Below are positions 1,137-29,671 of a stretch of 45,426 nucleotides of DNA, in pieces; the first letter of the stretch is position 1; every line of letters begins with the position of its first letter. Made by a program: the position numbers and the translations under genes. This DNA is from an uncultured Syntrophales bacterium (GTDB lineage: Bacteria; Desulfobacterota; Syntrophia; Syntrophales; JADFWA01), in contig CAZZBF010000001.1 of the NCBI GenBank assembly GCA_964652795.1, positions 49,593 to 95,018 on the forward strand, given 5' to 3'. The notes beneath the pieces were generated by a model that searched no databases, was not told the origin of the DNA, and saw only the letters and a program-made list of their open reading frames with translations.

Positions 1137-1907
1137 ATGTTGGAAGGTACTGCCGCATATGTGGCTGTTATCGTCATTTTTGGTGTCATTTTTTTCATTT
1201 TTCTAAAAGTGCGGAAAATAATGAAAAAGATGGCTCAAGACGAAGAGGACAGGAGAAAAGCTATGCTTGATCTTGTCGAGTGGGGAAATTTTGATGATAT
1301 TGATGAGAACGGTAAAACTTTATTAATGAGAGCCATTGAAGAAGGATTCGATGACGTTACAAGCAGAATACTCGAGAAAAATCCGAAAGTCAATAAAACT
1401 ACGCCAAGCGGGGCCACAGCTCTCCATTATGCAGCCGCATACGGAAACAATCGAATTGTTGAAAAACTCCTTGAATTAAACGCCGATCCCGACCCAAAAG
1501 ATAATCAGGGACGGAGTCCTCTGTGGGCTGCCGCACAACTGGGTCATTCACAAGTAGTTGAACTTCTTATAAAAAACGGAGCGTACATTGATCAAAAGGA
1601 AGACGTAGAGGGTATGACTCCGCTCATGGGAGCTGCCATAAACGGACGGAGCAGAGTTGTAGAAACACTCCTCAATCATGCGGCAGATGCGCATCTTACC
1701 TCTAACAAAGGTTGGACGGCCTGCAAATATGCCCAGGAGAACGTGGGAAGAAACATGGGACCGTATGAAAAACAAAATGCAGAGTTGAAAAAAATGGTTA
1801 TATTGCTTGAAAGAGTGGAACAGGGTTTGCCGCTCAGGTCTGCTTCAGCTAACAAGAAAAAATATATGGACGAAGCAGCTTATGACGGTGATAATGAAGA
1901 CGATTAA
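1137..1907 (+). CDS. Membrane-anchored ankyrin-repeat protein
   Basis: There is an N-terminal hydrophobic helix (AAYVAVIVIFGVIFFIFL). This is followed by at least four ANK repeats (TLLMRAIEEGFDDV..., TALHYAAAYGNNRIVEKLLELNADPDPKDNQGRSPLWAAAQLGHSQVVELLIKNGA..., TPLMGAAINGRSRVVETLL...). AAGGA lies 12 nt upstream of the ATG. Confidence 0.8.
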   Translation: MLEGTAAYVAVIVIFGVIFFIFLKVRKIMKKMAQDEEDRRKAMLDLVEWGNFDDIDENGKTLLMRAIEEGFDDVTSRILEKNPKVNKTTPSGATALHYAAAYGNNRIVEKLLELNADPDPKDNQGRSPLWAAAQLGHSQVVELLIKNGAYIDQKEDVEGMTPLMGAAINGRSRVVETLLNHAADAHLTSNKGWTACKYAQENVGRNMGPYEKQNAELKKMVILLERVEQGLPLRSASANKKKYMDEAAYDGDNEDD

Positions 1908-6938: not shown

Positions 6939-8372
6939 CTACTTTTTTTCTGTTTTTTCCGGCCGGGTCACATTCCCTGTCATGACATACTCGTGAATGC
7001 TCGCGGCGGCGGTTTTTCCGGCGCCCATCGCGGAGATTACCGTGGCGGCGCCCGTTACGATATCACCGCCGGCGAAGACGCCTTTTTTGGAAGTTTCGAG
7101 CGTGTCCGGATCACACTCCAGCGTGCCCCAGCGGGTAGTCTTCAGATCCGGCGTGGTCATAGGAATAAGCGGATTCGGAAGGTTGCCGAGCGCGGGGATA
7201 ACCGTGTCACATTCAATGATAAACTCGCTGCCCTCGACGGGTACCGGCCTGCGGCGACCGGAATCGTCCGGCTCACCGAGTTCCATCTTTACGCACTCAA
7301 CGGCTTTTACCCTGCCCTCTTCGTCGCCGATGATCCGTACAGGATTTGTGAGGAGTTTAAATTCAATACCTTCTTCCTCGGCGTGGTGGATTTCCTCATC
7401 ACGTGCCGGCATCTCCTCGCGGCTTCGCCTGTAAACTATCACAGATTCAGCCCCGAGCCTGATGGCGGTCCGGGCCGAGTCCATCGCCACGTTGCCGCCT
7501 CCTATGGTAACGGTTCTCCGGCTCCTGATAGGCGCGGTTCCGTACTCGGGAAACCTGAATGCCTTCATCAGGTTCGATCTTGTGAGGTACTCGTTTGCCG
7601 AATAGACACCGACGAGGTTTTCGCCGGGGATACCCATGAACATGGGAAGTCCGGCGCCGGTAGCTATAAATACGGAATCGTAACCATTTTGAAGAAGTTC
7701 CTCCACGGTGCGCGCTTTGCCGACTACATAATCCGTAATTATCTCAACGCCGAGCCTTTTAAGGTAGTCGATCTCATACTTGACGATTTCCTTGGGCAGG
7801 CGGAATTCGGGGATGCCGTATACCAGAACCCCTCCCGTTTCGTGAAGCGCTTCAAAGACTGTGACGCCATGCCCTAATTTAATAAGATCGCCGGCAACGG
7901 TGAGTCCCGCGGGCCCCGCTCCGATTATAGCCACCTTTTTGCCCGTCGGTTCGGCGATTTCAGGCATTTCAGACTTACCGTTTCTCCGTTCATAATCGGC
8001 GGCAAACCGCTCAAGGCGTCCAATAGCCACCGGTTCACCCTTTTTACCGAGGACGCATTTAATCTCGCACTGAGTTTCCTGGGGGCATACACGGCCGGTA
8101 ACCGCGGGCAGGGCATTCTGTTCTTTCAGCTTCCACGCCGCCTCAATAAATTTGCCTTCCTCGATGAGTTTGATGAAACCCGGGATATCTATGTTCACAG
8201 GACACCCCGTTACGCAAAGAGGTTTCTTGCATTTGATACAGCGCTTTGCTTCCATCACGGCAAGCTCTTCAGTGAAACCGTACGGCACTTCCTCAAAATT
8301 GTGCTTTCGTCTTTTCGGGTCCTGTTCAGGCATTTTCTGCCTGGGAATTTTCTGTCTTTCCTTGGGATCCAT
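6939..8372 (-). CDS. NfnB / SudA / GltD-like FAD- and NAD(P)-binding oxidoreductase with two [4Fe-4S] clusters
   Basis: GltD-type N-terminus (EAKRCIKCKKPLCVTGCPVNIDIPGFIKLI...GRVCPQETQCEIKCV) followed by a Rossmann fold (KVAIIGAGPAGLTVAG). The length of 477 aa fits the family. AGGAA lies 6 nt upstream of the ATG. It is the last gene of the nuoE-F-G/nfnA operon. Confidence 0.8.
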   Translation of the reverse strand: MDPKERQKIPRQKMPEQDPKRRKHNFEEVPYGFTEELAVMEAKRCIKCKKPLCVTGCPVNIDIPGFIKLIEEGKFIEAAWKLKEQNALPAVTGRVCPQETQCEIKCVLGKKGEPVAIGRLERFAADYERRNGKSEMPEIAEPTGKKVAIIGAGPAGLTVAGDLIKLGHGVTVFEALHETGGVLVYGIPEFRLPKEIVKYEIDYLKRLGVEIITDYVVGKARTVEELLQNGYDSVFIATGAGLPMFMGIPGENLVGVYSANEYLTRSNLMKAFRFPEYGTAPIRSRRTVTIGGGNVAMDSARTAIRLGAESVIVYRRSREEMPARDEEIHHAEEEGIEFKLLTNPVRIIGDEEGRVKAVECVKMELGEPDDSGRRRPVPVEGSEFIIECDTVIPALGNLPNPLIPMTTPDLKTTRWGTLECDPDTLETSKKGVFAGGDIVTGAATVISAMGAGKTAAASIHEYVMTGNVTRPEKTEKK

Positions 8373-8399
8373 ATCAATTCCTGATCTTTCTTTTAGCGG

Positions 8400-10910
8400 T
8401 CATATATCCGAGTGCCGGCAGTTATACATTTTGAAAGGCTCCTGGGACAGGGCCTCGACTTCTTCCTTTTTAAACGCGGCCTGCCTCTGCATGAGTTCAA
8501 TCCAGTTAATCTTCAGTCCGTCCAGAAACGGACCATCCACACACGCGAATTTCGTATCCTCCCCGACACTGACACGGCATACCCCGCACATCCCCGTACC
8601 GTCAAGCATCAGAGAGTTCATAGCGGTTTGAGTCGGGATATTGTGCTCCCTGGCGACTTCGGAAACGAGCATCATCATAAACGTACACCCGATTATATAC
8701 GACTGGTCTATCTTTTCACCTCTTTCAACCAGCATCGAAATTACCTCCTGCACGCCACCCTTGATTCCCGTGGAACCGTCTTTTGTAACGATAATCAATT
8801 CATCGCAGTTCCGGGAAAGTTTCTCCTCCCAGTGGAGCAGGTAATGGCTCGATGCCTCCTCTATGCAGATAACCCTGTTGCCGGCTTCTTTCATGGCACG
8901 GGCAATCGGCAGCATCGCGCCGACACCGTAACAGCCTCCGGCACAGACAACAGTGCCGTATTTTTTAACTTCGACAGGGGTTCCGAGCGGCCCGGCAAGG
9001 TGAGCGAGATATTCGCCGGCGTGTGTGTTCGCCATCTCGCGGCTTGACCTGCCGACCTCATGAATTACCATCGTAACGGTACCCTCTTTACGGTTAAAAT
9101 CCGATATGGTGTAAGGAATACGCTCGGATTTCTCGTTCACCATCGCTATAACAAACTGTCCGGGCTGACACTTTTCCGCGATCACCGGCGCGTCTACCGT
9201 TATCATATGGGTATTCGGCACAATCTCCGCCTTTTCAACAATTTTAAACGGCCTTTCTTCCGCGGGCTCGTCATCTGTTAATTTTTCAGCGGTTTCCTCG
9301 AGAGTAAGGCTCCTAAGCGCGCGTACAATATCAGCAAGTTTGTGTCCCCTGTAAAAACGGGGCAGGGCGGCAACGTCATCGAGGGGTGACGGATCGGGTG
9401 GTGCCGGTACATCGTAAACCACGCCCTTTTTAATTAATTCTTCATTGATATCGGCGGTGGATTCGAAATCGAAACTCGAAGCACCCATTTTTTGAGCGAT
9501 ATCGCAGACAATCTTCCAATCAGGAAACAGACTGTAAGGAGGAGTACCCGCGGCGGTCAGTGTTTTAATCTCCCCGGATGAGTTGAGAAACGTGCCGTCA
9601 GTTTCGGCAAGCGCCGCCGCCGCGATCACAACATCTGCCGCTTTTTCGGTTTCGGAGGGAAACATGTCTGCAACGATAATCGTTTCAAGCCTTTGGAGCA
9701 CGGCCGGTTCGAGATAATTGCCGGTAGAGTAGAGAGCTTTGACTGTTCCTTTTTCCATTGCTTCGGCCACCGGACCGGGTTCTATCACAAGAGTTTCACA
9801 GCGGGATGAGGCCACGGCAAAGTTGTCGGATTTCATGACTTCCTTAGCAAATTTTTTCAGCAGATAAATTTCCTCGCGGGTGGCCGACGAATTGGCAATA
9901 AGGGCAAACTGTTCTCCCGAATAGGTCCCGAGTTTTTCCGCGGCCATGGCAACCGCATCCTTATATCCCGCTTTTATCAGGCCGTCTTCGATACGCACCT
10001 GGTGTGAAACCATTCTCAAAGGGTTGTCCAAAAGCTGCGGCAGCACGAACCGCCCCACCGCGCAGATACGATCGTCTCTCGTAAATCCTGTCATTCCTGA
10101 ACCGATCACCCGCCCGTTTTTGAGCTTGAGGCGAATTGAACATCCGTGAGGACAAACCACGCATGTGGAGTCTTCCGTCGAAGCCGCGGCTCCGTACCAT
10201 TTTGCAAACCTGTCGGACAAAGCGCCCGTCGGACAGATATCAATGCACGCTCCGCAAAACTGGCAGTCCGTTTCAGTATGATCCCTGTGGAATGCCGTCC
10301 CGATGCGGGCATCCTTGCCGCGGTTGATAAAATCAATTGTCCCTTTTCCGTGGATCTTTTCGCAGATGCGGGCACACCGACCGCAAAGGACACAGAGATT
10401 GTAATCTCTGTCCATAAACGGATCGTTCCGCTCAATATCAAGATCTCTGTAGATTATCGGGACTTCAAATTCATTTATCTGGTATTCATCAGCGAGTTTT
10501 CTCAGTTCGCAGTTAGCCACGTTACTGCAAAAGATACAGCGCGTGGCTTTGCCGGTCTTGAAGGGAAGCGGCCGGTACTTCTCGCACAACTCGCGGTGAT
10601 AACAGGCGAGACATGGGCTGGTGTGGCCGCTGAGCATCAGTTTTATCACATTTCTGCGGAGTTCAATGATTTCAGGCGACGTCGTTTTGACGACCATCCC
10701 GTCGACGGACGGCGTGGTGCACGAGGTCGGAAATCCCCGCATTCCTTCGATTTCAACAATACACAACCGACACGCCCCGTATGGTTCAAGCGCCGGGTGA
10801 GCGCAGAGAGTGGGAATTTCTATTCTCCCCTTCCGGGCGGCTTCGAGTACCGTATCGCCTTTTTCGGCCTCTATTTTTTTTCCATCTATCGTAAGTATTA
10901 TCTTGCCCAT
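8400..10910 (-). CDS. Fusion protein: NuoG/HndD-like N-terminal Fe-S module with a truncated molybdopterin-oxidoreductase-like domain, plus a C-terminal NfnA/PyrK/SudB-like FAD-[2Fe-2S] module
   Basis: The N-terminus carries a 2Fe-2S ferredoxin fold (CAHPALEPYGACRLC), a His-ligated cluster, 2x[4Fe-4S] (CVLCGRCARIC, CQFCGACIDICP) and CVVCPHGC. The C-terminal ~285 aa (from about nt 9255) carry an FNR-like RIPYTIS motif and a PyrK-type terminal cluster motif CGVCRVSVGEDTKFACVDGP. Confidence 0.75.
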   Translation of the reverse strand: MGKIILTIDGKKIEAEKGDTVLEAARKGRIEIPTLCAHPALEPYGACRLCIVEIEGMRGFPTSCTTPSVDGMVVKTTSPEIIELRRNVIKLMLSGHTSPCLACYHRELCEKYRPLPFKTGKATRCIFCSNVANCELRKLADEYQINEFEVPIIYRDLDIERNDPFMDRDYNLCVLCGRCARICEKIHGKGTIDFINRGKDARIGTAFHRDHTETDCQFCGACIDICPTGALSDRFAKWYGAAASTEDSTCVVCPHGCSIRLKLKNGRVIGSGMTGFTRDDRICAVGRFVLPQLLDNPLRMVSHQVRIEDGLIKAGYKDAVAMAAEKLGTYSGEQFALIANSSATREEIYLLKKFAKEVMKSDNFAVASSRCETLVIEPGPVAEAMEKGTVKALYSTGNYLEPAVLQRLETIIVADMFPSETEKAADVVIAAAALAETDGTFLNSSGEIKTLTAAGTPPYSLFPDWKIVCDIAQKMGASSFDFESTADINEELIKKGVVYDVPAPPDPSPLDDVAALPRFYRGHKLADIVRALRSLTLEETAEKLTDDEPAEERPFKIVEKAEIVPNTHMITVDAPVIAEKCQPGQFVIAMVNEKSERIPYTISDFNRKEGTVTMVIHEVGRSSREMANTHAGEYLAHLAGPLGTPVEVKKYGTVVCAGGCYGVGAMLPIARAMKEAGNRVICIEEASSHYLLHWEEKLSRNCDELIIVTKDGSTGIKGGVQEVISMLVERGEKIDQSYIIGCTFMMMLVSEVAREHNIPTQTAMNSLMLDGTGMCGVCRVSVGEDTKFACVDGPFLDGLKINWIELMQRQAAFKKEEVEALSQEPFKMYNCRHSDI

Positions 10911-10968
10911 TATTGTCTTTACTCCTGTTTTTCCGAGCCTGTCTCACACGGGCATATAAACCGGAATA

Positions 10969-12786
10969 TCATTTCCGGCCTGATGTCTTTTGTACCGCGT
11001 CAAAGGGACACACACTGAAGCACATGCCGCAGCGTATACATCTTTCTTCGTGGATGACAAAAGCCTCCGGCGGTTTCACGGAACCTGTAATAGCGTCGGT
11101 CGGACAGTCTTTCTTGCAGAGACCGCATGACTTGCACGTTTCGGCATCGATGGCGTATGTCAAAAGCGCCTTGCACGCAAGAGCGGGACACCGTCCTTCG
11201 GTAATATGAGCTTCGTATTCGTCCCGAAAATGTTCGATAGTTGTAAGTACCGGGTTCGGGGCCGTCTGGCCGAGACCGCAAAGTGAGGCGTCTTTGATAA
11301 CCCCGCACAATTTCTCCAGAGTATCGATGTCATCCGGCCTCCCTTTCCCTTCCGTAATGTCATTCAGAATGCGAAGCACGTGCTGTGTGCCCATTCTGCA
11401 TGGAGTACATTTGCCGCAGGATTCATTTTCCGTAAAGGAAAGGAAGTATCTCGCGATATCAACCATGCAGGAATCCTCGTCCATAACAACCATACCGCCT
11501 GAACCCATGATCGAACCGACCTTCGCGAGCTCATCAAAATCTACCTTCATATCGAGAAATTGAGCCGGAATGCAGCCGCCGGACGGACCGCCTGTCTGCA
11601 CCGCCTTGAATTTTTTGCCGTCCGGGATACCTCCGCCGATTCCGAATATTATTTCGCGAAGGGTTGTTCCCATCGGAACTTCTATCAAGCCGCTGTTCGC
11701 TACTTTTCCGGTAAGGGCGAAGACCGCGGTGCCGGGACTTTTTTCAGTGCCGATACCGGCAAACCAGTCTGCCCCTTTATTAATAATCTCCGGAATGTAT
11801 GACAGGGTTTTTACGTTATTGATTATGGTCGGCCTGCCCCACAGCCCCTTCTGCGCTGGGAAAGGCGGACGTGTACGGGGCATCCCTCTGGATCCTTCGA
11901 TAGAAGCTATCAACCCGGTCTCCTCTCCGCACACAAAAGCTCCCGCGCCCTGGAATATTTTTAAATCGAAGCTGAAATCACTGCCCGCTATGTTGCCGCC
12001 TAAAAATCCTTTCTCCCTGGCCTGTGATACGGCGATGTAAAGGCGCTTGACGGCTAACGGGTATTCCGCGCGCACATATATAAAACCTTTCGTCGCGCCT
12101 ATGGCGTAGCCCGCGATGATCATTCCCTCTATAACCTGATGCGGGTTGGCTTCCAGAATAGACCTGTCCATAAACGCGCCCGGGTCACCTTCATCCGCGT
12201 TACAGATTATGTATTTCTGATCGGCGTTCTCATCCCGGCAAAACTTCCATTTTACGGCCGCCGGAAAACCGGCGCCGCCTCTTCCACGGAGTCCCGATTT
12301 TTTTATCGTTTCGATAACATCTTCCGGGGTCATTTCATGGAGGACTTTTTCGGTCGCCTGATACACCCCCGCGTTAATGGAATCCTCGATTACCTCGGGG
12401 TTGATGTGACCGCAATTTTTAAGGACTATACGTTCCTGTCCCGCGTAAAAAGGAATGTCCCTGTAGCACTTGACCGGTTCGTCAGTTGCGGGATCACGAT
12501 AAAACAGGCGTTCAACCGGTTTATTATTCTTCAGGTGAGACTCGACAATTTCGGGAACATCTTTTTCCTTCACTGCCGAGTAAAAAACACCTTCAGGTTC
12601 AATAATAACTATCGGGCCTCTCTGGCAGAAACCGTGACAGCCCGTAAATTTCACGTTAATTCCCCCGAGGCCGGCCTTCTTAACTTCGGCTTCGATAGCA
12701 CCGTAAATATCAACAGACCCCGAAGACACACAGCCCGTACCCAGGCAAACAAGAACAGTGCGGCCATTGTCATTTGAATTAGTCAT
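10969..12786 (-). CDS. NuoF / HydB / HndC-like NAD(P)H-binding flavoprotein subunit with an N-terminal thioredoxin-like [2Fe-2S] domain and C-terminal 2x[4Fe-4S]
   Basis: Motifs GRGGAGFP and ESCGKCTPCR (NuoF FMN/NADH/4Fe-4S), an N-terminal CLGTGC...CHGFCQRGP, and C-terminal CKSCGLCKKDCP and CIRCGMCFSVCP. The ATGA start/stop overlap couples it to the upstream nuoE-like gene. Confidence 0.85.
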   Translation of the reverse strand: MTNSNDNGRTVLVCLGTGCVSSGSVDIYGAIEAEVKKAGLGGINVKFTGCHGFCQRGPIVIIEPEGVFYSAVKEKDVPEIVESHLKNNKPVERLFYRDPATDEPVKCYRDIPFYAGQERIVLKNCGHINPEVIEDSINAGVYQATEKVLHEMTPEDVIETIKKSGLRGRGGAGFPAAVKWKFCRDENADQKYIICNADEGDPGAFMDRSILEANPHQVIEGMIIAGYAIGATKGFIYVRAEYPLAVKRLYIAVSQAREKGFLGGNIAGSDFSFDLKIFQGAGAFVCGEETGLIASIEGSRGMPRTRPPFPAQKGLWGRPTIINNVKTLSYIPEIINKGADWFAGIGTEKSPGTAVFALTGKVANSGLIEVPMGTTLREIIFGIGGGIPDGKKFKAVQTGGPSGGCIPAQFLDMKVDFDELAKVGSIMGSGGMVVMDEDSCMVDIARYFLSFTENESCGKCTPCRMGTQHVLRILNDITEGKGRPDDIDTLEKLCGVIKDASLCGLGQTAPNPVLTTIEHFRDEYEAHITEGRCPALACKALLTYAIDAETCKSCGLCKKDCPTDAITGSVKPPEAFVIHEERCIRCGMCFSVCPFDAVQKTSGRK

Positions 12787-13268
12787 TTCTTCTTCTCCTT
12801 GCTAATGGCCTTCAATATCTTTGTTGCCTTTTGAGGAGTTAAATGGCCGTGCACTTTCTGGTCAATTGTCATACAGGGAGCCAGAGCACAGCATCCTATG
12901 CATGCCACGGTTTCGAGAGAAAATTTTCCGTCATCGGTCGTTTCACCCTCTTTTATGTTAAGGCGTCTCTTAACTTGTTCGAGTATTTGTTCCGCGCCTC
13001 CGACGTGGCATGCCGTTCCACGGCACAGGCATATTACATGGTCGCCCGGGCGCGTGAATTTGAATTGAGTATAAAATGTGGCCACGCCGTAGATATAGCT
13101 CTGTGAGACATCGAGGTATTTCGCGATGCGCTTTACCGAGTCTTCAGATATATATCCGAATTTTTCCTGCACTCCCTGCAGAATCGGTATTAAGCTGTCC
13201 AGATACCGATTATAAGTTTGAAGTATTTTTTGTAATTCTTCTGAAACGTTCGCCACCGGTATTTTCAA
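12783..13268 (-). CDS. NuoE / HydC-like [2Fe-2S] thioredoxin-like subunit
   Basis: Carries CLCRGTACHVGG and CIGCCALAPCM. The start codon at 13266-13268 is TTG, not ATG, so start confidence is moderate; AGGAAGGA lies about 15 nt upstream. Confidence 0.75.
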   Translation of the reverse strand: MKIPVANVSEELQKILQTYNRYLDSLIPILQGVQEKFGYISEDSVKRIAKYLDVSQSYIYGVATFYTQFKFTRPGDHVICLCRGTACHVGGAEQILEQVKRRLNIKEGETTDDGKFSLETVACIGCCALAPCMTIDQKVHGHLTPQKATKILKAISKEKKK

Positions 13269-13475
13269 TATATCCGATCACATCCTTCCTGTTCTGCGTA
13301 AAATCCCAAAGCCGTCCTGCTTATATCAGCCTCAAATCAAACTAATACGCAGGAATTTAAAGCACGGAAAACTTGAACTTATAAAAATGCTCACGATTTT
13401 TGTCAAGAAAAAAAAGGCGGGTTGAAAGAAAGCAAACCCAGACGAGTTGTTGCCCGGATATCCGGGAGGTCATTT

Positions 13476-15392
13476 TTAGTTAACCTCCTGTCCCTTATTT
13501 CCGCTTTCATAGTTCTTAAGAAAATCAAGTTCTTTCTTTTTCATATAGATAAGCACAGCCACAATTGCCGCCTGGGTAATACCCGGTATTCTTCTTGCCT
13601 GCCCTATGGAAGCGGGTTTTATTACTGACAGTTTCTTTTTCAGCTCATTGGACAAACCGGGTATCGTGAAATAATCCAGTCCCGAGGGTATTTCTTTTTC
13701 CTCCATCTCCTTGAACTTCGCGACAGATTCTTTTTGCCGCTTGATATATCCCTCGTATTTTATCTCGATTTCTATCTGCTTTTTCACCATTTTATCATGA
13801 ACGTCTTCCCATCCCTCAAAGGGTTTCAGGTCGTCATAGGAAAGCTCAGGCCTTTTGAGCAGCTGATAGAAAGTTGTCGGTTTTTTTATATGCGCGGTTC
13901 CGATCCTTGAAAGAACAATGTTCAGGTCCGCGCTCGGATAGAGTTTTTTTGATGACAGTTTTTTTATTCCCGCTTCCACCCGGCGAATCTTCTCCCTCAG
14001 ATCACCGTAATCATCCTTTGAAATCAATCCGAGATCATAGCCTTTCCCCATCAATCTTATGGTGGCGTTATCTTCTCTCAGAATAAGACGGTACTCCGCC
14101 CGTGACGTAAACATCCGATATGGTTCATCAACCCCTGTCGTAACAAGATCATCGATGAGCACCCCCATGTATGCCTCCGATCGGTCTAAAATAAATGGCT
14201 TTCTCCCCTGTATAGCGGAAGCAGCGTTGATCCCCGCCCACATCCCCTGAGCGGCGGCTTCTTCGTAACCGGATGTACCGTTTATCTGCCCGGCGAGAAA
14301 CAAACCGTCAATAAGCTTTGTCTCAAGCGTCCGTTTGAGCTGCGTAGGCTGGACATAATCATATTCTATAGCATAGGCCGATCGCATCATTTCCGCTTCT
14401 TCGAGACCCGGAACACTGTGGACTATCTTTTCCTGAAGCTCAATGGGTAAGCTGTTTCCCAGACCTTTTGAGTAAATCTCTTCCGTCTCAATACCTTCAT
14501 ACTCAAGAACAACCGGATGACTTTCTTTGTCCGTAAAGCGTACCACCTTATCTTCGAGAGAAGGGCAGTAACGGGCGCTTATCCCCTTGATGGCACCTGA
14601 ATAAAGGGGAGATTTCTCTATGTTATCCCTGATAAGTTTATGCGTCTCGGGCGTCGTGTGGGAAAAATACGAGGGAATTCTCTCCTCACGCAACGTTTTC
14701 GTGGTAAAAGAGAAAGGTTCGGGATCAGGATCGCTGTCCTGCCTTTTGAGTACGGAAAAATCGATCGTGGAGGCGCGCAATCTGGGCGGGGTACCGGTCT
14801 TCATACGCCCCATCTCGAAACCTTTTTCCCTTAAAGATTCCGCAAGAGAAATCGATGCTATCTCACCCGCGCGTCCCGCGGATTGACGCGTAGTGCCTAT
14901 ATGTACAAGTCCGTTTAAAAAGGTTCCCGTTGTGATGATAACATTCTTCCCGCCGTAAAAATATCCGGTACTGTCTTTAACTCCCACAACCCTGTTCCCC
15001 TCAACCACAAGCCGCTCAACAAGGGCTTGCCGTATGTGGAGGTTTTTCTCCTTTTCAATGACAGCTTTCATTGCCCGCGTGTACAGCTGTTTATCGCACT
15101 GCACCCGTGAAGACTGGACAGCCGGGCCCTTCGAGGAATTAAGCAGGCGAAAATGAACGGCCGTCTTGTCGGCTATCTTTGCCATCTCCCCACCCAGGGC
15201 ATCAATCTCTTTTACAAGCTGGGCCTTGGCAAGACCTCCGATAGCCGGGTTACATGACATCAGCGCGATGGAATCGAGATTAATATTGAACAAAAGTGTC
15301 TCACACCCCATTCTCGCGGCTGCCAGGGCGGCTTCACACCCCGCGTGACCTCCCCCGACAACGATGACATCATATTTTCTTTCAGAACTCAT
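13476..15392 (-). CDS. mnmG: tRNA uridine 5-carboxymethylaminomethyl modification enzyme MnmG (GidA)
   Basis: [32 protein letters not shown] motif and full-length MnmG architecture. Start reassigned to MSSERKYD (ATG 15392), with GGAG 8 nt upstream. The longer ORF N-terminus is low-complexity. Confidence 0.9.
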
Positions 15393-15478
15393 AGTACGCT
15401 CCAAAACTGAAAGACTTGAACTAAGATTAACAATATAGTAGCATAAAAGGAAAAAATACAACAAAAAAATATAATAAT

Positions 15479-16411
15479 ATGCCAAAGCCTGCTTTCTGGA
15501 ACAATTCCAAAAGATATTATGATTTTAAGAGCTTCCTGATTAACAAATTCGGGTGCAAGGTCTACAAGCTGCAGATTGATGCAGGCTTTACCTGCCCGAA
15601 TCGTGATGGAGCAATCTCAACAGGAGGATGTACATACTGTGACGGCCGTGGTTCACGCCTGAGACAGAAAGGCTCTCTTCCCTCCGTAACCGAACAGATT
15701 GAACAGAGCAAAAAATATTACAGAAAAAAAAGGAGCGCCGCAAAATTCATCGCCTATTTTCAGACCTTCACGAATACTTACGGTCACTACAAAAAACTCA
15801 AGGCACTTTACGACGAGGCACTTGCGCAAAAAGATATGGTAGGCCTTGCCGTCGGAACACGACCCGACTGCGTTCCCGATGAGGTAATCGATCTATTTGA
15901 AGAATACGCGAATGATTATCACGTATGGGTGGAATATGGGCTTCAATCCATTCATGAAAAAACTCTGAAGAGTATCAATCGCGGACATGGACCCGAAGTG
16001 TTTCTTGATGCCGTCCGCAGAACCGCCGGGAAAAATATTAACATCTGTGTTCACATCATTGTCGGACTTCCCGGAGAAAACTACAAAGAGATTCTTGAAA
16101 CAGCGAGGGTTGTTGCCGGTCTGCCGATCAACGGGATCAAGATACATCTTCTTCTAGCCCTTAAGGGAACGGTCATCGGAGATCTATACAAAGAAGATAA
16201 AATAACGATGTTGGACAAGGAGGAATACGTCGGCACCGTCTGCGACATACTCGAGATATTGCCCCCGGAGGTAACGATTCAGAGATTGACGGCTGACGGT
16301 TACAGGGACATTTATTTAGCCCCGCAGTGGGGAATTAACAAGATGGATGTCCTCAATTCCATCGACAGAGAACTCGAAAAGAGAAATTCTTTCCAAGGAG
16401 CAAATTTTTGA
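15479..16411 (+). CDS. Radical SAM protein of the TIGR01212 (YhcC-like) family
   Basis: Carries the [18 protein letters not shown] motif of the CPNRDG-type radical-SAM family. It is divergent from mnmG. Confidence 0.75.
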
Positions 16412-16542
16412 AGCCATTCCTCTCTTTAACTCCATTGCGGATTTTCCGCATAGATGCCTTTATTTATGCTTCTCTAGGGTGTTAAAATCTAAATAAGATT
16501 TATATTTACTAGTTTTTTTACACCTCACTGCAATTTTGCAAT

Positions 16543-16571
16543 TGACAATTGCTTATCTGGGTGATATTAGA
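16543..16571 (+). promoter_or_regulatory. Sigma70-like promoter candidate (TTGACA-N17-TATTAG) overlapped by the inverted repeat GCAATTgacAATTGC
   Basis: TTGACA at 16543-16548 and TATTAG 17 nt downstream. A perfect 6-bp inverted repeat GCAATT-N3-AATTGC, together with a third GCAATT direct repeat, spans the -35 element. This is a possible operator. Confidence 0.3.
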
Positions 16572-16596
16572 TCGGCAAAAGGTTACCGATTGCCAT

Positions 16597-17616
16597 ATGA
16601 ACACCACTTTCCATCCCAACAACGTAGAGAAAAAAACCATAATCATCTTGGAGATTCTGGCTAACGCAGAATGCCCAATGGGGTCTCGATTGATATCAAG
16701 ATGCCTGAAGGATCAAGGCGTGACATTGAGTGAAAGAGCTGTCAGATATCATCTCAAGTTGATGGATGAACGTGGGCTCACAAAGTATATAGACAAGCAT
16801 GTTGGCAGAACTATTACGGAGTTGGGCATTGAGGAGATAGGCAGTGCCAGAGTGCAGGACAAAATAGGATTCGCTATTTCACGAATAGAAAATCTTGCTT
16901 TCAGAACAACCTTTGATCCTCAAAAGGGGCAAGGTCTTCTCCCCGTAAATGTCTCTTTTTTCCTTAAAGAACAATTCAAAGAGGCATTGGAAGCTATGGT
17001 TCCAGCTTTTAATGCTGGCCTTTTCGTAAGCGAACTTGTGGCTTTTGCCGAAGCAGGAAAAAGGCTTGGCGGGATACTTGTTCCGGAAGGCAGGGTCGGA
17101 TTCGCAACCGTCTGCAGTATTGTAATTAATGGTGTGCTTCTGAAAAACGGCGTCCCCCTGGACTCCAAGTTCGGAGGCATCTTGCAGTTAAAGGACGGAA
17201 AACCCCTGCGCTTCGTCGAGCTTATCTATTATTCGGGCTCTTCTCTAGATCCCTCGGAGGCTTTTATACAGGGAAAGATGACTTCCGTCGGGAAGGCATC
17301 GGAAAAGGGAGAAGGAAAAATCGTCGCAAACTTTCGAGATTTTCCTGTTCTTTGTCTAAATACGGTGGAGAAATTAACCTGTGAACTGAAGCGGGTAGGG
17401 ATAGGAGGTGTTCTTTCGATCGGCAAGGTAAGCGAACCGATCTGTCAGATTCTGGTAGATGTGAACAAGGTTGGGATGATCCTTGTGGGAGGAATGAACC
17501 CCGTGGCATGTGCCCAGGAAGCAGGATTCAGTGCGGAGAATTATGCCATGTCAACGGTAATGGATTACGGTGAATTAATTAATTTCCAAGAATTACGTAA
17601 CAAAGAATTATCATAG
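16597..17616 (+). CDS. NrpR-like nitrogen regulatory protein (N-terminal winged HTH plus a DUF128/NrpR-type domain). Assignment is tentative.
   Basis: N-terminal wHTH (KKTIIILEILANAECPMGSRLISRCLKDQGVTLSERAVRYHLKLMDERGL), about 270 aa of glycine-rich alpha/beta domain, and a length of about 340 aa match the single-domain NrpR architecture. It lies immediately upstream of gdhA. Start taken at ATG 16597 (MNTTFHP) rather than the upstream TTG. Confidence 0.45.
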   Translation: MNTTFHPNNVEKKTIIILEILANAECPMGSRLISRCLKDQGVTLSERAVRYHLKLMDERGLTKYIDKHVGRTITELGIEEIGSARVQDKIGFAISRIENLAFRTTFDPQKGQGLLPVNVSFFLKEQFKEALEAMVPAFNAGLFVSELVAFAEAGKRLGGILVPEGRVGFATVCSIVINGVLLKNGVPLDSKFGGILQLKDGKPLRFVELIYYSGSSLDPSEAFIQGKMTSVGKASEKGEGKIVANFRDFPVLCLNTVEKLTCELKRVGIGGVLSIGKVSEPICQILVDVNKVGMILVGGMNPVACAQEAGFSAENYAMSTVMDYGELINFQELRNKELS

Positions 17617-17676
17617 TTAAACAGAAAGATTTCAAAACAGAGGCAGTTGCCAAAAATATAAGAGAAGGAGATAAAA

Positions 17677-19026
17677 ATGAAAGAATTTATCAAAATGTGT
17701 GAGGTGAAAAATCCGGGTCAGCCGGAGTTTATCCAGGCCGTGTCGGAGGTTGCAGAATCGGTTAAACCTGTTTTAGACAAACATCCTGAGTACCGCAAGG
17801 CAAAGATAATGGAGCGGGTGGTTGAACCCGAGAGAACAATTATGTGCCGGGTTTCCTGGCTTGATGATAACGGCGAGGTTCAGGTCAGCAAGGGCTATCG
17901 TATTCAGGTGAATAGTGCCATAGGTCCGTTTAAAGGAGGCTTTCGCTTTCATCCGTCAGTCAATATGAGTATACTTAAGTTTCTCGGCTTTGAGCAGGTC
18001 TTTAAAAACGCACTGACAACCCTTCCAATGGGTGGCGCCAAGGGAGGATCGGATTTCGATCCCAAGGGGAAATCGGATAACGAAGTAATGCGTTTCTGCC
18101 AGAGTTTCATGACCGAAATGTTCAGACATATCGGGCCGGATACCGATGTTCCTGCAGGAGATATTGGAGTGGGTGCTCGTGAAATAGGATACATGTTCGG
18201 TATGTATAAAAAGCTGCAGAATGAATTTACCGGTGTTTTGACCGGTAAAGGTCTTGAATGGGGAGGAAGTCTCATTCGCCCTGAAGCTACCGGTTACGGC
18301 TGTGTCTATTTTGCCTCCGAAATGCTGGCAACAAAAAAAGATACCATGAAAAACAAGCTCTGTCTGGTTTCAGGTTCCGGGAATGTATCTCAGTATACTG
18401 TTGAAAAAATTTTGGAGCTGGGAGGAAAGGTAGTAACACTTTCTGATTCTTCTGGATACATCTACGATGAGAAGGGAATAAACAGGAAAAAACTCGATTT
18501 TGTCATGCACCTTAAAAATGTGGCACGGGGACGCATCAAGGAATATGCGGACAAGTATCCCGAAGCGGTTTATACTCCCATCGATCCCGCTCTTGATTAC
18601 AATCCACTTTGGAATCATAAGGCTGATTGCGCGTTTCCTTCCGCGACGCAGAACGAAATAAATGGCAAGGATGCTCAGAACCTGATCAACAATGGTGTCT
18701 ATGTAGTGGCCGAAGGTGCGAATATGCCCACAGTTCCAGCGGGCATTGACGTCTTTTTGGACAGTAAGATTTTATATGGGCCAGGGAAAGCAGCTAATGC
18801 CGGTGGTGTTTCTGTTTCTGGTCTTGAGATGTCCCAGAACAGCATGCGCTTAAGCTGGTCTCGTGAAGAGGTAGATAAACATCTTCACGACATTATGAGA
18901 AAGATACACAAGGCCTGTGTTGAGGCATCCGAAGAATACGGCACTCCCGGCAATTACGTAAACGGCGCCAATATAGCCGGATTTACAAAGGTTGCTAACG
19001 CAATGATGGCTCAGGGAGTAGTTTAG
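17677..19026 (+). CDS. gdhA: NADP-specific glutamate dehydrogenase
   Basis: Full-length GdhA-type hexameric GDH (KGGFRFHPSVNMSILKFLGFEQVFKNALTTLPMGGAKGGSDFDPKGKSD...). AGGAG RBS is present. Confidence 0.9.
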   Translation: MKEFIKMCEVKNPGQPEFIQAVSEVAESVKPVLDKHPEYRKAKIMERVVEPERTIMCRVSWLDDNGEVQVSKGYRIQVNSAIGPFKGGFRFHPSVNMSILKFLGFEQVFKNALTTLPMGGAKGGSDFDPKGKSDNEVMRFCQSFMTEMFRHIGPDTDVPAGDIGVGAREIGYMFGMYKKLQNEFTGVLTGKGLEWGGSLIRPEATGYGCVYFASEMLATKKDTMKNKLCLVSGSGNVSQYTVEKILELGGKVVTLSDSSGYIYDEKGINRKKLDFVMHLKNVARGRIKEYADKYPEAVYTPIDPALDYNPLWNHKADCAFPSATQNEINGKDAQNLINNGVYVVAEGANMPTVPAGIDVFLDSKILYGPGKAANAGGVSVSGLEMSQNSMRLSWSREEVDKHLHDIMRKIHKACVEASEEYGTPGNYVNGANIAGFTKVANAMMAQGVV

Positions 19027-25860: not shown

Positions 25861-27477
<1,617 letters not shown>

Positions 27478-27514
27478 TTAACTTTCAGAATACTTATAAG
27501 ATTAACTTCACATG

Positions 27515-29668: not shown

Positions 29669-29671
29669 GTA

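What the first reader, a model, noticed from the sequence alone, without database searches (positions are those of the whole stretch)
6939..13268. Operon of NuoE-like, NuoF-like, a NuoG-like::NfnA fusion and NfnB/GltD-like: candidate Bfu/Stn-type electron-bifurcating NAD(P)H-ferredoxin oxidoreductase with a fused NfnA module
The 836-aa protein joins a NuoG/HndD-type Fe-S N-terminus, which keeps only a vestigial molybdopterin-like domain, to a complete NfnA/PyrK-type FAD-[2Fe-2S] module of about 285 aa. An NfnB/GltD-type subunit follows, and NuoE/NuoF homologues precede it with overlapping stop and start codons. Classical Nfn is a two-subunit AB enzyme. HydABC/Bfu enzymes lack NfnA, and Stn (NfnB-like plus NuoF-like plus HydA-like) lacks NuoE and NfnA as far as I recall. 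So this five-module combination would carry two potential bifurcating flavin sites. It lies about 14 kb from a GOGAT whose small-subunit-like module also carries ferredoxin domains. That suggests it may supply NADPH or reduced ferredoxin for nitrogen assimilation.
Basis: partly seen in the sequence, partly recalled or inferred. Interest (0 to 1): 0.7.

Follow-up and report, generated by a model that had tools for sequence, protein, structure and literature searches.

The report
Bifurcating Bfu core joined to NfnAB
A four-gene operon joins two electron-splitting enzyme machineries that the recent literature treats as unrelated families (a HydBC/Bfu core and a complete NfnAB unit), with one subunit of each fused into one protein, and I found no description of this widespread arrangement in the papers I could search.

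Summary
Window 6939-13268 (minus strand) encodes four proteins:
- BfuC/NuoE-like, 161 aa.
- BfuB/NuoF-like, 605 aa.
- An 836-aa fusion: BfuA/NuoG-like Fe-S domain, degenerate molybdopterin remnant, then an NfnA module.
- A canonical NfnB, 477 aa.

BfuB carries every published signature of bifurcating Bfu enzymes. NfnB carries every signature of the bifurcating NfnL subunit.

More than 110 full-length homologues of the fusion occur in at least eight bacterial lineages. The same genes also occur unfused, as NuoE-NuoF-BfuA-NfnA-NfnB, in other bacteria and in archaea.

Three features mark this family:
- NfnA has two invariant cysteines inside its NAD-binding motifs (20 of 20 Bfu-linked, 0 of 25 canonical).
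- BfuA has a 27-residue cysteine insertion at the loop where Stn/NfnABC carries its GltD-like domain.
- BfuA has lost the formate dehydrogenase active site.

Most likely this is an NADP(H)-linked Bfu complex that uses a whole NfnAB unit as its third-substrate module. The wiring and stoichiometry are unknown. I rate it a new variant of a known kind.

The parts
12783..13268 (-). BfuC (NuoE/HydC-like) subunit, 161 aa, with a thioredoxin-like [2Fe-2S] domain
   Evidence: PF01257 scores E 1.4e-51. The best solved relatives are C subunits of bifurcating enzymes: Tsi NfnC 9N5U_C (3e-44), A. mobile HydC 7T2R_C and T. kivui HydC 8A6T_C. The TTG start is uncertain; a GTG lies 12 nt downstream.
10969..12786 (-). 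BfuB (NuoF/HydB-like) subunit, 605 aa: N-terminal 4-Cys [2Fe-2S] domain, FMN/NADH site, B1 cluster, B2 ligands, and a C-terminal 2x[4Fe-4S] ferredoxin-binding domain
   Evidence: Pfam domains are. It aligns over its full length to experimentally bifurcating B subunits: 7T2R_B 831 bits, then 7Q4V_B, 9N5U_B, 9BOV_B, 8A6T_B and 8OH5_B at 700-800 bits. Non-bifurcating Nqo1 gives only 412 bits over the core. The signature residues of Schut 2022 Supp. Figs 9-10 are present: CNADEGDPGAFMDRS, GAGAFVCGEETG, CMVD, and H..CPALAC.
8400..10910 (-). 836-aa fusion protein: BfuA (NuoG/FdhA-type Fe-S wire), degenerate MopB remnant, conserved linker, then the NfnA module
   Evidence: 112 full-length homologues align. 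The AF2 model has pLDDT 87.2 and pTM 0.83.
10509..10625 (-). His-ligated cluster motif split by a 27-residue insertion that adds three Cys (aa 96-134: H96, C100, C103 | C109, K118, C125, C128 | C134)
   Evidence: The insertion is absent from FdsA 6TG9_A, NiFe-HydA 7T2R_A and L024. C109, K118, C125, C128 and C134 are invariant in 112 sequences. Stn/NfnABC has its GltD-like domain inserted in this same loop (Kremp 2020). Two relatives with an FDH active-site motif (L013, L022) have one more Cys here.
10062..10421 (-). Two ferredoxin-type [4Fe-4S] motifs (C173/176/179/183 and C216/219/222/226) and an FS0/A5-type CxxCxxxC..C motif (C250/253/257/283)
   Evidence: Fer4_Nqo3 matches. All these Cys are invariant.
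9411..10043 (-). Degenerate molybdopterin-oxidoreductase remnant (aa 290-500) with no catalytic site
   Evidence: Pfam Molybdopterin matches only profile 251-352 of 353, and there is no Molydop_binding domain. The FDH active-site motif ARL[C/U]H is absent. The residue aligned with FdsA Cys386 is not conserved in the family.
9252..9410 (-). Conserved linker (aa 501-553) with the motif SP..LP.YRGH
   Evidence: P509, P517, R521, G522 and H523 are invariant or nearly so. Mean pLDDT is about 92 for aa 501-530, about 71 for aa 531-540, and below 50 for aa 539-551.
8400..9251 (-). NfnA (NfnS/PyrK-like) module (aa 554-836): FAD motif ERIPYT, Asp+3Cys [2Fe-2S] motif DGTGMCGVCRx10CV, and a remodelled NAD-binding domain (GGC660YGVG, EASSHY, GC742TFMM)
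   Evidence: NF004862 scores 329 bits. 5JCA_S gives E 5e-73 and Foldseek TMt 0.89, rmsd 2.7 A. Cys at positions 660 and 742 occurs in 20 of 20 Bfu-linked and 0 of 25 canonical NfnA.
6939..8372 (-). NfnB (NfnL/SudA/GltD-like) subunit, 477 aa, canonical: two [4Fe-4S] clusters, bifurcating-type FAD site and an NADP(H) site
   Evidence: 4YLF_B gives E 2e-169 and 5JCA_L gives 3e-157. The motifs RCx2Cx4Cx3CPV, GRVCPQExQC, IGRLERF (Glu ligand), PEFRLP (Arg at N5) and YRRS are all present. Only one weak position (V159) separates Bfu-linked from canonical NfnB.
13378..13459 (-). Putative operon boundary: a terminator-like hairpin after mnmG (13459-13436), then a promoter-like TTGACA-17 nt-TATAAG (13406-13378)
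   Evidence: The hairpin was found. I read the promoter-like hexamers by eye; the consensus scan did not report them. This is consensus resemblance only.

Best explanation
The operon encodes one soluble multi-subunit flavo-iron-sulfur complex of the Bfu (HydABC-type) family. Its third-substrate module is a complete NfnAB-type unit, not a hydrogenase, a formate dehydrogenase or an inserted GltD-like domain.

Shown by sequence:
- A BfuBC core with all residues that distinguish bifurcating from non-bifurcating NuoEF homologues.
- A BfuA Fe-S wire descended from an FdhA-type subunit that has lost its pterin site.
- Covalent fusion of that wire to an NfnA module.
- An NfnB that I cannot distinguish from canonical bifurcating NfnL.

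Inferred:
- The complex interconverts NADP(H), NAD(H) and ferredoxin, so it is an Nfn/Stn-like transhydrogenase.
- In vivo it probably runs towards NADPH.
- The two bifurcation centres (BfuB FMN with its clusters, and NfnB FAD) are electronically connected through BfuA.

My preferred wiring is tentative. The NAD pocket of NfnA has been remodelled by the two new cysteines. The extra cysteine-bearing loop of BfuA lies next to it. Electrons would then pass from the BfuA wire to the NfnA FAD and [2Fe-2S] cluster and on to the NfnB FAD.

The stoichiometry depends on the wiring and cannot be derived from sequence. The options are:
- NADH + 2 Fd(red) + 2 NADP+, as in Nfn and Stn.
- 3 NADH + 2 Fd(red) for 4 NADPH.
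- NADH + 6 Fd(red) for 4 NADPH.
For: 1. Bfu core. BfuB aligns over its full length at 700-831 bits to seven structurally characterised bifurcating B subunits, against 412 bits to Nqo1. The signature motifs of Schut 2022 are present in the window and in all related loci.
2. Physical coupling.
- The fusion occurs in 112 or more clusters at 90% identity.
- In L008 and L009 the two halves are separated by a single in-frame stop.
- The gene order NuoE-NuoF-fusion-NfnB is conserved in MAGs labelled Desulfobulbus, Phycisphaerales, Fidelibacterota, Kiritimatiellae and Hydrogenedentes.
- The unfused five-gene version occurs in MAGs labelled Chloroflexi, Bacteroidales, Aminicenantes, Syntrophorhabdus, Thermoplasmatota and Thorarchaeota.
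3. NfnB is canonical, with the Glu ligand, the Arg at N5 and the NADP 2'-phosphate arginines. This contrasts with Stn/NfnABC, where Lys replaces Glu and the FAD does not bifurcate.
4. Co-adaptation of the partners.
- The NfnA Cys pair is present in 20 of 20 Bfu-linked and 0 of 25 canonical sequences.
- It forms one clade.
- It coincides with loss of the ARLCH FDH site in BfuA. Only L013 and L024 keep ARLCH, and both have canonical NfnA.
5. Precedents.
- Pfu NfnII/Xfn has a substitution in the same Gly-rich loop and is reported to lack NAD-dependent activity (Liang 2019).
- Bam-Bfu is proposed to combine a Bfu module with a second bifurcating module (Schut 2022).
6. NADPH direction. gdh, glnA, GOGAT or nrpR lie beside the operon in the window, L005 and L029, and gdh lies beside canonical nfnAB in five loci.
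Against: - There is no biochemical or expression evidence for any member.
- No inter-subunit geometry could be obtained. The structure tool returns no coordinates and takes only single chains, so which Nfn cofactor contacts BfuA is untested.
- If the wire feeds NfnA while NfnB still bifurcates to free ferredoxin, the NADPH-forming stoichiometry wastes ferredoxin and the reverse direction is uphill. Simple thermodynamic bookkeeping therefore does not clearly favour my preferred wiring.
- The remodelled NfnA pocket keeps a Gly-rich loop and gains an acidic residue at the end of beta-2 (E685). That could equally mean it retains NADH binding.
- The nitrogen-assimilation synteny is seen in only 3 of about 28 loci.
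- The NfnB tree does not separate Bfu-linked from canonical forms.
Confidence: 0.62

Rival explanations
1. Tandem (double) bifurcation through the ferredoxin branch. NfnA still binds NAD(H), and the distal [4Fe-4S] cluster of NfnB docks on the extra BfuA cluster, where the homologous GltD-like domain sits in Stn. Low-potential electrons from the NfnB FAD then enter the Bfu wire and are bifurcated a second time. The net reaction is 4 NADPH + 3 NAD+ + 2 Fd(ox) = 4 NADP+ + 3 NADH + 2 Fd(red). This could poise ferredoxin far below -500 mV. In reverse, it could make NADPH with half the usual ferredoxin cost.
For: - The BfuA insertion lies exactly in the loop that holds the NfnB-like domain in Stn/NfnABC.
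- NfnB is fully canonical, including its cluster ligands.
- NfnA keeps a Gly-rich loop and has an acidic residue at the end of beta-2 (E685, invariant), which is typical of NADH sites in this fold (my knowledge).
- By my own arithmetic with the physiological potentials quoted in Schut 2022, the NADPH-oxidising direction is exergonic.
Against: - All three NAD-binding motifs of NfnA changed together with Bfu association. This model does not require such a change.
- NfnII/Xfn, altered in the same loop, is reported to lack NAD-dependent activity.
- No geometry is available.
Confidence: 0.2
2. The NfnA-like module has a new active site. The two cysteines next to the FAD form a redox-active disulfide or metal site. 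The complex then reduces a thiol/disulfide, polysulfide or another acceptor X (Xfn- or sulfide-dehydrogenase-like), and does not act mainly as a transhydrogenase.
For: - The invariant Cys pair lies in what was the nicotinamide pocket.
- The Methanothrix harundinacea relative has four Cys there and no NfnB.
- The Nfn family includes NfnII/Xfn with an unknown partner substrate.
- NCBI names these proteins 'sulfide/dihydroorotate dehydrogenase-like'.
Against: - NfnB with an intact NADP(H) site is retained in nearly all loci.
- No sulfur or thiol metabolism genes are conserved beside the operon.
- Whether the two Cys are close in space is inferred only from knowledge of the fold.
Confidence: 0.1
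3. Two independent enzymes that are merely neighbours or tethered: an ordinary NfnAB, and a BfuABC whose real third substrate is encoded elsewhere.
For: L013 and L024 look like this. They have an FDH-competent BfuA (ARLCH, full MopB) next to a canonical nfnAB. One Cys-pair NfnAB (L033) has no Bfu genes within the 6 kb upstream or about 4.5 kb downstream held in the locus.
Against: - The two are covalently fused in more than 110 sequence clusters.
- BfuA has no catalytic domain left.
- The NfnA signature correlates perfectly with degenerate BfuA.
- The gene order is conserved across phyla.
Confidence: 0.05

Closest known systems
Stn / NfnABC (Nfn-Bfu, Type 1 Bfu): Sporomusa ovata StnABC (8OH5), Caldicellulosiruptor saccharolyticus NfnABC (9BOV), Thermococcus sibiricus NfnABC (9N5U)
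   Same: - It has the same HydBC-type BfuBC core. BfuB scores 702-744 bits and BfuC scores 124-154 bits against these structures.
- It has a NuoG/FdhF-like BfuA with a non-catalytic MopB-type remnant.
- It has an NADP(H)-binding GltD/NfnB-type flavoprotein module.
- The modification sits at the same BfuA loop.
   Different: - Here the NADP(H) module is a separate, canonical NfnB with the Glu cluster ligand. Stn has a domain inserted in BfuA with a Lys ligand.
- The BfuA loop carries only a 27-residue Cys insertion.
- An NfnA module is present and fused to the BfuA C-terminus. By contrast, 'there is no NfnA homologue in Stn' (Kumar 2023).
NfnAB / NfnSL (T. maritima 4YLF, P. furiosus NfnI 5JCA)
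   Same: - NfnB scores E 2e-169 and 3e-157 with all cofactor and bifurcation-site motifs.
- The NfnA module scores E 5e-73, TMt 0.89, with the ERxPxT FAD motif and the Asp-ligated [2Fe-2S] motif.
   Different: - NfnA is the C-terminal module of an 836-aa BfuA.
- Its GGGxGxA, GAR(T/S)K and IGP motifs are replaced by GGCYGxG, EA(S/R)S and IGC.
- HydBC homologues are co-encoded. By contrast, 'there is no HydBC homologue in Nfn'.
Fdh-Bfu and NAD-dependent formate dehydrogenase alpha subunit (R. capsulatus FdsA 6TG9_A)
   Same: The BfuA part aligns contiguously with FdsA residues 25-386. Relatives in the same gene context are full FDH-type subunits: L013 has Cys and L022 has Sec at ARL[C/U]H.
   Different: Most of the MopB domain and the whole Molydop_binding domain are missing, and there is no catalytic Cys/Sec-His. 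FdsA lacks the extra Cys insertion.
P. furiosus NfnII / Xfn (5VJ7)
   Same: Its NfnA-type small subunit has an altered Gly-rich loop at the same position (GAYTG). It is a precedent for an Nfn whose small subunit does not use NAD.
   Different: It has different substitutions (no Cys pair, and it keeps GP) and scores lower (E 5e-47). No Bfu partner is described for it in the papers I read.
Bam-Bfu (BamBCDEFGHI benzoyl-CoA reductase)
   Same: It is a proposed precedent for a Bfu module wired to a second, different bifurcating flavin module in one complex (Schut 2022).
   Different: Its second module is HdrA-type with a tungstopterin catalytic subunit. There are no Nfn components, and the substrate is benzoyl-CoA.

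Membership tests
Bfu (HydABC-type) electron-bifurcating family (Schut et al. 2022) | BfuB NADH/FMN-site signature that separates bifurcating from non-bifurcating NuoF homologues (xCNxDEGDPGAFMDR and GAGAFVxGEE) | tested here: met
   The window has CNADEGDPGAFMDRS and GAGAFVCGEETG, and so do nearly all related loci (L007, and the Y/N variants in L014-L029, differ by one or a few residues).
Bfu (HydABC-type) electron-bifurcating family (Schut et al. 2022) | B2-site ligands (Cys in CMVD, then His and CxxxxC after the B1 motif), conserved in all 1,558 Bfu sequences of the survey | tested here: met
   The window has DSCMVD and EAHITEGRCPALAC.
Bfu (HydABC-type) electron-bifurcating family (Schut et al. 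2022) | BfuB has an N-terminal [2Fe-2S] domain and a C-terminal 2x[4Fe-4S] ferredoxin-interacting domain; BfuC has a [2Fe-2S] cluster | tested here: met
   Pfam 2Fe-2S_thioredx matches aa 7-83 and Fer4 matches aa 546-598 of BfuB. PF01257 matches BfuC. BfuB aligns over its full length to 7T2R_B, residues 8-596.
Bfu (HydABC-type) electron-bifurcating family (Schut et al. 2022) | BfuA carries at least the A1 [2Fe-2S] and A2 clusters that feed the BfuBC core | tested here: met
   C36/47/50/64 and H96/C100/C103/(C109 or C134) are invariant in 112 sequences.
Bfu (HydABC-type) electron-bifurcating family (Schut et al. 2022) | Tightly coupled reduction or oxidation of ferredoxin and NAD(H) with a third substrate | not testable with these tools
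   This needs enzyme assays.
NfnAB / NfnSL transhydrogenase | NfnB motifs RCx2Cx4Cx3CPV and GRVCPQExQCx3C..Gx2ER (Glu-ligated proximal cluster), Arg at FAD N5, and an NADP site | tested here: met
   The window has KRCIKCKKPLCVTGCPV, GRVCPQETQCEIKCV, IGRLERF, PEFRLP and YRRS.
NfnAB / NfnSL transhydrogenase | NfnA FAD motif ERxPxT and [2Fe-2S] motif DGTGMCGxCRx10CV | tested here: met
   The window has ERIPYT and DGTGMCGVCRVSVGEDTKFACV.
NfnAB / NfnSL transhydrogenase | Canonical NAD-binding domain of NfnA (GGGxGxA(P), G(A/G)R(T/S)K, IGPxxMM) | tested here: not met
   The window has GGCYGVG, EASSHY and IGCTFMM. The Cys/Gly/Cys substitutions occur in 20 of 20 (Gly: 19 of 20) Bfu-linked and 0 of 25 canonical sequences. 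Whether NAD(H) still binds is unknown.
NfnAB / NfnSL transhydrogenase | Stand-alone heterodimer (or NfnA-NfnB fusion) without HydBC-type partners | tested here: not met
   NfnA is fused to BfuA, and BfuB and BfuC are in the same operon.
Stn / NfnABC (Nfn-Bfu Type 1) | GltD/NfnL-like FAD domain inserted into BfuA between the HxxxC... and CxxC... motifs | tested here: not met
   Only a 27-residue insertion lies at that loop, and the NfnB homologue is a separate gene.
Stn / NfnABC (Nfn-Bfu Type 1) | Lys-ligated [4Fe-4S] cluster next to a non-bifurcating FAD, and no NfnA homologue | tested here: not met
   NfnB has Glu (IGRLERF), and an NfnA module is present. The Lys form (IRALKRF) occurs instead in the NuoF::GltD variants of related loci.
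Formate dehydrogenase / Fdh-Bfu | Complete MopB plus Molydop_binding domains, with a catalytic Cys/Sec-His | tested here: not met
   Molybdopterin matches only profile 251-352 of 353, and there is no PF01568. There is no ARL[C/U]H motif.
Glutamate synthase small subunit (GltD) | Partnered with a GltB large subunit (amidotransferase, FMN and GXGXG domains) in the same operon | tested here: not met
   No GltB-type gene is in the operon. The window's split GOGAT at 27515-32259 has its own fused GltD-like module. The TIGR01316 'gltA' name is a legacy label for NfnB/SudA-type proteins (my knowledge).

The most novel reading that the evidence does not exclude
The two best-understood, supposedly unrelated bifurcation machineries (the single-FAD NfnSL site and the Bfu FMN/Fe-S 'flavobicluster') are wired in series in one complex. 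The link is a new Fe-S site built from the BfuA cysteine insertion and the cysteine pair that replaced the NAD pocket of NfnA. This would give a tandem bifurcating enzyme with a non-classical NADPH:NADH:ferredoxin stoichiometry. The family would also be the evolutionary intermediate from which Stn/NfnABC arose, when NfnB was captured into the same BfuA loop.
Probability: 0.25. Interest if true: 0.85.

Novelty: new variant of a known kind. Interest (0 to 1): 0.72.

Why it matters
Recent structural papers present NfnSL and BfuABC as phylogenetically unrelated families that catalyse the same reaction. Kremp 2020 found Nfn and Stn almost mutually exclusive in acetogen genomes.

A conserved family present in many phyla that fuses a complete NfnAB unit to a BfuABC core raises three points:
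- The two mechanisms can apparently be coupled in one complex.
- It gives a natural system for asking how two bifurcation sites communicate, and what stoichiometry results.
- It suggests how the Stn-type enzyme may have evolved.

The carriers are mostly uncultured anaerobes: Syntrophales and other Desulfobacterota, Kiritimatiellae, Phycisphaerae, Hydrogenedentes, Fidelibacterota, Aminicenantes, Dehalococcoidia, Thermoplasmatota and Thorarchaeota. In these organisms the cost of NADPH in ferredoxin units directly affects energy budgets. Current annotation calls the protein 'sulfide/dihydroorotate dehydrogenase-like', so metabolic reconstructions probably misread it.

Tried and rejected
- **Literature.** Six of the ten allowed full-text searches found no description of BfuABC with NfnA or NfnAB. 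Neither did reading Schut 2022 with its supplement, Liang 2019, Kremp 2020, Kumar 2023, the two 2025 NfnABC structure papers, and several genome papers. The library holds open-access papers only, so an earlier description elsewhere cannot be excluded.
- **Formate dehydrogenase reading.** Rejected. There is no catalytic motif and the MopB domain is truncated.
- **GOGAT small-subunit reading.** Rejected on gene context.
- **NrpR operator.** GGAA-N6-TTCC has one hit in the window, inside the operon and not at the promoter, at chance level. There is no evidence of NrpR control.
- **Promoter and terminator scan.** Counts were at shuffle level. I noted only a by-eye promoter and one hairpin.
- **Genome scan.** It returned no cultured organism with the fusion.
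- **Organism.** The nearest named relative is a Syntrophales MAG at 88% identity.
- **Fold search.** The afdb50 library was unavailable. Foldseek against PDB only re-found the two halves separately.
- **Geometry.** The AF2 output gives no coordinates, so I could not test whether the Cys insertion and the NfnA Cys pair are close.
- **NfnB signatures.** The search for residues specific to Bfu-linked NfnB found only one weak position (V159).

Full report
**1.

Window 6939-13268 contains four co-directional ORFs on the minus strand, at exactly the stated coordinates. Their Pfam and NCBIfam assignments are as follows.
- The 161-aa protein is a NuoE-type thioredoxin-like [2Fe-2S] protein.
- The 605-aa protein is a NuoF-type flavoprotein. 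It has an extra N-terminal [2Fe-2S] domain and a C-terminal 2x[4Fe-4S] domain.
- The 836-aa protein starts with a NuoG/FdhA-type Fe-S N-terminus. It keeps only the last third of the Molybdopterin profile, at aa 382-473. Its last part, aa 555-823, matches the NfnA/SudB family NF004862 at 329 bits.
- The 477-aa protein is an NfnB/SudA/GltD-type flavoprotein. TIGR01316 scores 619.6 bits against a cut-off of 471.75.

NuoE and NuoF overlap by 4 nt, and the other two junctions are 58 nt and 27 nt. A terminator-like hairpin after mnmG and a TTGACA-17-TATAAG element precede the first gene. The downstream neighbour is convergent. The four genes therefore look like one operon, although this rests on consensus resemblance only.

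**2. The fusion is real and conserved**

A word-indexed search of 5.8 billion proteins listed 120 best hits. Nearly all are 817-865 aa long and cover 98-100% of the query at 46-94% identity. They come from MAGs labelled Syntrophales, Deltaproteobacteria, Desulfobulbus, Fidelibacterota, Kiritimatiellae, Hydrogenedentes, Phycisphaerales and Omnitrophica. Where NCBI names them, the name is 'sulfide/dihydroorotate dehydrogenase-like FAD/NAD-binding protein'.

112 of them align end to end, and all predicted cluster ligands are invariant. An AlphaFold2 model built on that alignment has mean pLDDT 87.2 and pTM 0.83. The NfnA part superposes on P. furiosus NfnS with TM 0.89 and rmsd 2.7 A.

The nearest named relative, at 88% identity, is from a Syntrophales MAG. 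The source organism of the window itself was not identified.

**3. The gene context is conserved, and an unfused version exists**

I fetched contigs for distant homologues. I also ran tblastn with all window proteins against 85 loci. Three classes emerged.
- **Class I** is NuoE-NuoF-fusion-NfnB. It comprises the window, L001-L008, L010, L011 and L085. L009 has the order NuoE-BfuA-NfnA-NfnB-NuoF. In L008 and L009 the short BfuA and NfnA are separated by one in-frame stop codon.
- **Class II** is a five-gene NuoE-NuoF-BfuA-NfnA-NfnB cluster with a longer BfuA of 727-926 aa. It occurs in MAGs labelled Coatesbacteria, Chloroflexi/Dehalococcoidia, Bacteroidales, Syntrophorhabdus, Aminicenantes, Eubacteriales, Desulfocapsaceae, Thermoplasmatota and Thorarchaeota (L012-L029).
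- **Class III** is ordinary nfnAB with no Bfu genes (L030-L084).

The molybdopterin domain of BfuA decays in steps.
- L013 has a full domain: Molybdopterin 275 bits plus Molydop_binding 109 bits.
- L017 has only 61 bits.
- The window has 51 bits, over one sub-domain.

A profile-free search with the remnant plus linker (aa 290-560) found full-length matches in two size groups. One group is fused proteins of about 840 aa. The other is unfused BfuA proteins of about 530-580 aa.

**4. Both halves carry the marks of bifurcating enzymes**

For the Bfu half, the best solved relatives of BfuB are all experimentally bifurcating B subunits, matched over their full length. They are A. mobile NiFe-HydB, A. 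woodii, T. kivui and T. maritima HydB, the T. sibiricus and C. saccharolyticus NfnB subunits of NfnABC, and S. ovata StnB, at 700-831 bits. Non-bifurcating Nqo1 matches only the core, at 412 bits. BfuC behaves the same way.

Schut et al. 2022 list residues that separate bifurcating from non-bifurcating homologues. These are the B2 ligands Cys/His/Cys/Cys and the motifs GDPGAFMDR and GAGAFVCGEE. All are present in the window. Nearly every related locus has them too; L007 and some class II loci differ by one or a few residues.

For the Nfn half, NfnB matches T. maritima NfnB at E 2e-169. It has the published cluster motifs (Liang 2019). It has the Glu ligand in IGRLERF and the Arg of PEFRLP that contacts N5 of the bifurcating FAD. 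In Stn/NfnABC that ligand is Lys and the FAD does not bifurcate. A systematic comparison found essentially no residue that separates Bfu-linked NfnB from canonical NfnB.

**5. What is special about this family**

I found three correlated features.

*(a) NfnA has a remodelled NAD-binding domain.*
- In 20 of 20 Bfu-linked NfnA sequences, the third Gly of GGGxGxA is Cys (C660 in the fusion) and the Pro of IGP is Cys (C742). The Ala of the same motif is Gly in 19 of 20.
- None of these substitutions occurs in 25 canonical NfnA sequences, including the two crystallised ones.
- The GAR(T/S)K motif is replaced by an acidic-residue motif, EASSHY.
- The Cys-pair NfnA sequences form one clade in a neighbour-joining tree.
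- P. furiosus NfnII/Xfn is altered in the same loop (GAYTG). It is reported to lack NAD-dependent activity (Liang 2019).

*(b) BfuA has a 27-residue insertion inside the His-ligated cluster motif.*
- It adds C109, C125 and C128 and an invariant K118.
- FdsA, NiFe-HydA and L024 lack it.
- Two relatives with an FDH active-site motif, L013 and the Sec-containing L022, have one more Cys here. That gives eight ligands, enough for two complete clusters. All degenerate forms have seven ligands.
- Stn/NfnABC carries its inserted GltD/NfnB-like domain in this same loop (Kremp 2020).

*(c) BfuA has lost the FDH active site.*
- Among the class I and II BfuA sequences compared, the motif ARLCH is found only in L013 and L024.
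- These are the only two Bfu-linked loci whose NfnA is canonical.

L013 and L024 are therefore best read as an Fdh-Bfu next to an ordinary nfnAB. The remaining loci form a distinct co-adapted system.

**6. How it most likely works**

Shown:
- The BfuA wire is covalently linked to an NfnA module.
- The BfuBC core and NfnB are conserved partners in the operon.
- BfuA has no other catalytic domain.

Inferred: the NfnAB unit is the third-substrate module of a Bfu enzyme, so the substrates are NADP(H), NAD(H) and ferredoxin.

How the two parts are wired is open. The NAD pocket of NfnA changed together with Bfu association, and a cysteine-bearing BfuA loop is one ligand short. I therefore favour the path BfuA wire, then NfnA FAD and [2Fe-2S], then NfnB FAD. 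I cannot exclude that the distal NfnB cluster docks on BfuA as its homologue does in Stn.

Using the physiological potentials quoted by Schut 2022, my own arithmetic gives three possible overall reactions:
- NADH + 2 Fd(red) + 2 NADP+, which is Nfn-like.
- 3 NADH + 2 Fd(red) + 4 NADP+, if the wire enters through the NfnB clusters and NfnA still uses NADH.
- NADH + 6 Fd(red) + 4 NADP+, if the wire replaces NADH at NfnA and NfnB still takes ferredoxin.

The second reaction, run in reverse, could poise ferredoxin near -680 mV. The third wastes ferredoxin. None can be chosen without geometry or assays.

**7. Physiological context**

The window also holds an NrpR-type regulator (16549-17616) and a glutamate dehydrogenase (17677-19026). 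It holds CTP synthase, a split GOGAT (27515-32259) and glutamine synthetase (33010-34344).

Other loci show similar neighbours.
- The Kiritimatiellae locus L005 has CTP synthase, NrpR and GDH directly upstream, and GltD plus GOGAT downstream.
- L029 has GS upstream.
- Five canonical nfnAB loci sit next to gdh.

This is weak but consistent support for an NADPH-supplying role in ammonium assimilation. A search for the methanogen NrpR operator gave nothing above chance.

**8. Comparison with what is known**

The Bfu survey lists twelve kinds of Bfu enzyme. Its Nfn-Bfu is the Stn type, with the GltD-like domain inside BfuA. None of the twelve has an NfnA component, and seventeen clades were left unassigned.

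The Nfn review lists four architectures, and none includes NuoG, NuoE or NuoF.

Kumar 2023 states that Stn has no NfnA homologue and Nfn has no HydBC homologue. Kremp 2020 found Stn and Nfn almost mutually exclusive in acetogens. The 2025 structure papers call the two families unrelated.

The present system fails defining features of each single family. It has no inserted GltD domain and no Lys ligand, so it is not Stn. It is not a stand-alone NfnAB and lacks a canonical NfnA NAD domain. It has no FDH site. It does meet all testable Bfu-core criteria. I therefore file it as a new variant within the Bfu family, not as a member of Stn or of NfnAB.

**9. Limits**

- All related sequences are from metagenome-assembled or uncultured genomes. 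I found no cultured carrier.
- There are no expression or biochemical data.
- The trees are neighbour-joining without support values.
- The comparison of 3-Cys and 4-Cys insertions rests on only two or three FDH-active sequences.
- The spatial closeness of C660 and C742, and of either to the BfuA insertion, is inferred from general knowledge of the FNR-like fold and was not measured.
- The literature check covers an open-access library only.

Noticed in passing
L002:4907-8008, L005:5060-7984, L007, L008, L010, L024 (NuoF homologues of 974-1043 aa): In a subset of these operons the C-terminal 2x[4Fe-4S] ferredoxin-binding domain of BfuB is replaced by a GltD-like Fer4_20 plus FAD/NADP domain. 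That domain has the Stn-type Lys (IRALKRF) in place of Glu. These complexes would carry an Stn-like NADPH module on BfuB as well as NfnAB on BfuA.
   Followed up: partly
L020:3618-9274 (Methanothrix harundinacea MAG): This NuoE-NuoF-BfuA-NfnA-like cluster has no NfnB. Its NfnA-like protein has the Cys pair plus two more Cys (DGCRGC) in the NAD-pocket motifs. Four Cys there suggests a metal or cluster site where NAD would bind. The two downstream ORFs have no Pfam match.
   Followed up: partly
L022:6001-8760 (Candidatus Kuenenia stuttgartiensis MAG): This FDH-type BfuA has an in-frame TGA at the catalytic position (ARL*H), probably selenocysteine. It carries the 4-Cys version of the insertion and has no Nfn genes downstream.
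   Followed up: no
L008:7590-7620 and L009:3150-3180: A single in-frame stop codon separates the short BfuA from NfnA. These are otherwise collinear with the fused gene. This could be recent fission or fusion, or read-through. I did not check the identity of the stop codon.
   Followed up: partly
window 16549-19026 and 25861-34344; L005:1-3995 and 15085-18532: The window has a nitrogen-assimilation neighbourhood: NrpR-type regulator, GDH, CTP synthase, GS, and a split archaeal-type GOGAT whose GXGXG domain is fused to a GltD-like module and a ferredoxin domain. Part of this neighbourhood is syntenic with the Kiritimatiellae locus.
   Followed up: partly
L051, L052, L068, L070, L071: Canonical nfnAB, or fused nfnAB in Bacteroidales, lies directly next to a glutamate dehydrogenase gene.
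   Followed up: no
window 21999-25793 (-): A 1264-aa ORF has only a SIS domain match (aa 623-752). It lies between hisH/hisF-like genes and CTP synthase. Its function is unclear.
   Followed up: no
window 1137-1907 (+): An ankyrin-repeat protein of 256 aa, with four Ank_2 stretches (E 1e-56), occurs in what appears to be a bacterial MAG.
   Followed up: no
L033:6001-8315 (Aminicenantes MAG): A Cys-pair-type NfnA with NfnB has no Bfu genes within the 6 kb upstream or about 4.5 kb downstream held in the locus. It is the only exception to the link between the signature and Bfu genes. The partner genes may lie elsewhere on the 2.4-Mb scaffold.
   Followed up: no
L024:14-1933: The Dehalococcoidia locus carries, just upstream of its Bfu-Nfn cluster, an SfrB- or StnC-N-terminus-like fusion: a BfuA N-terminal Fe-S domain joined to a GltD-like domain. 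Similar stand-alone fusions occur in L031, L039 and L046.
   Followed up: no
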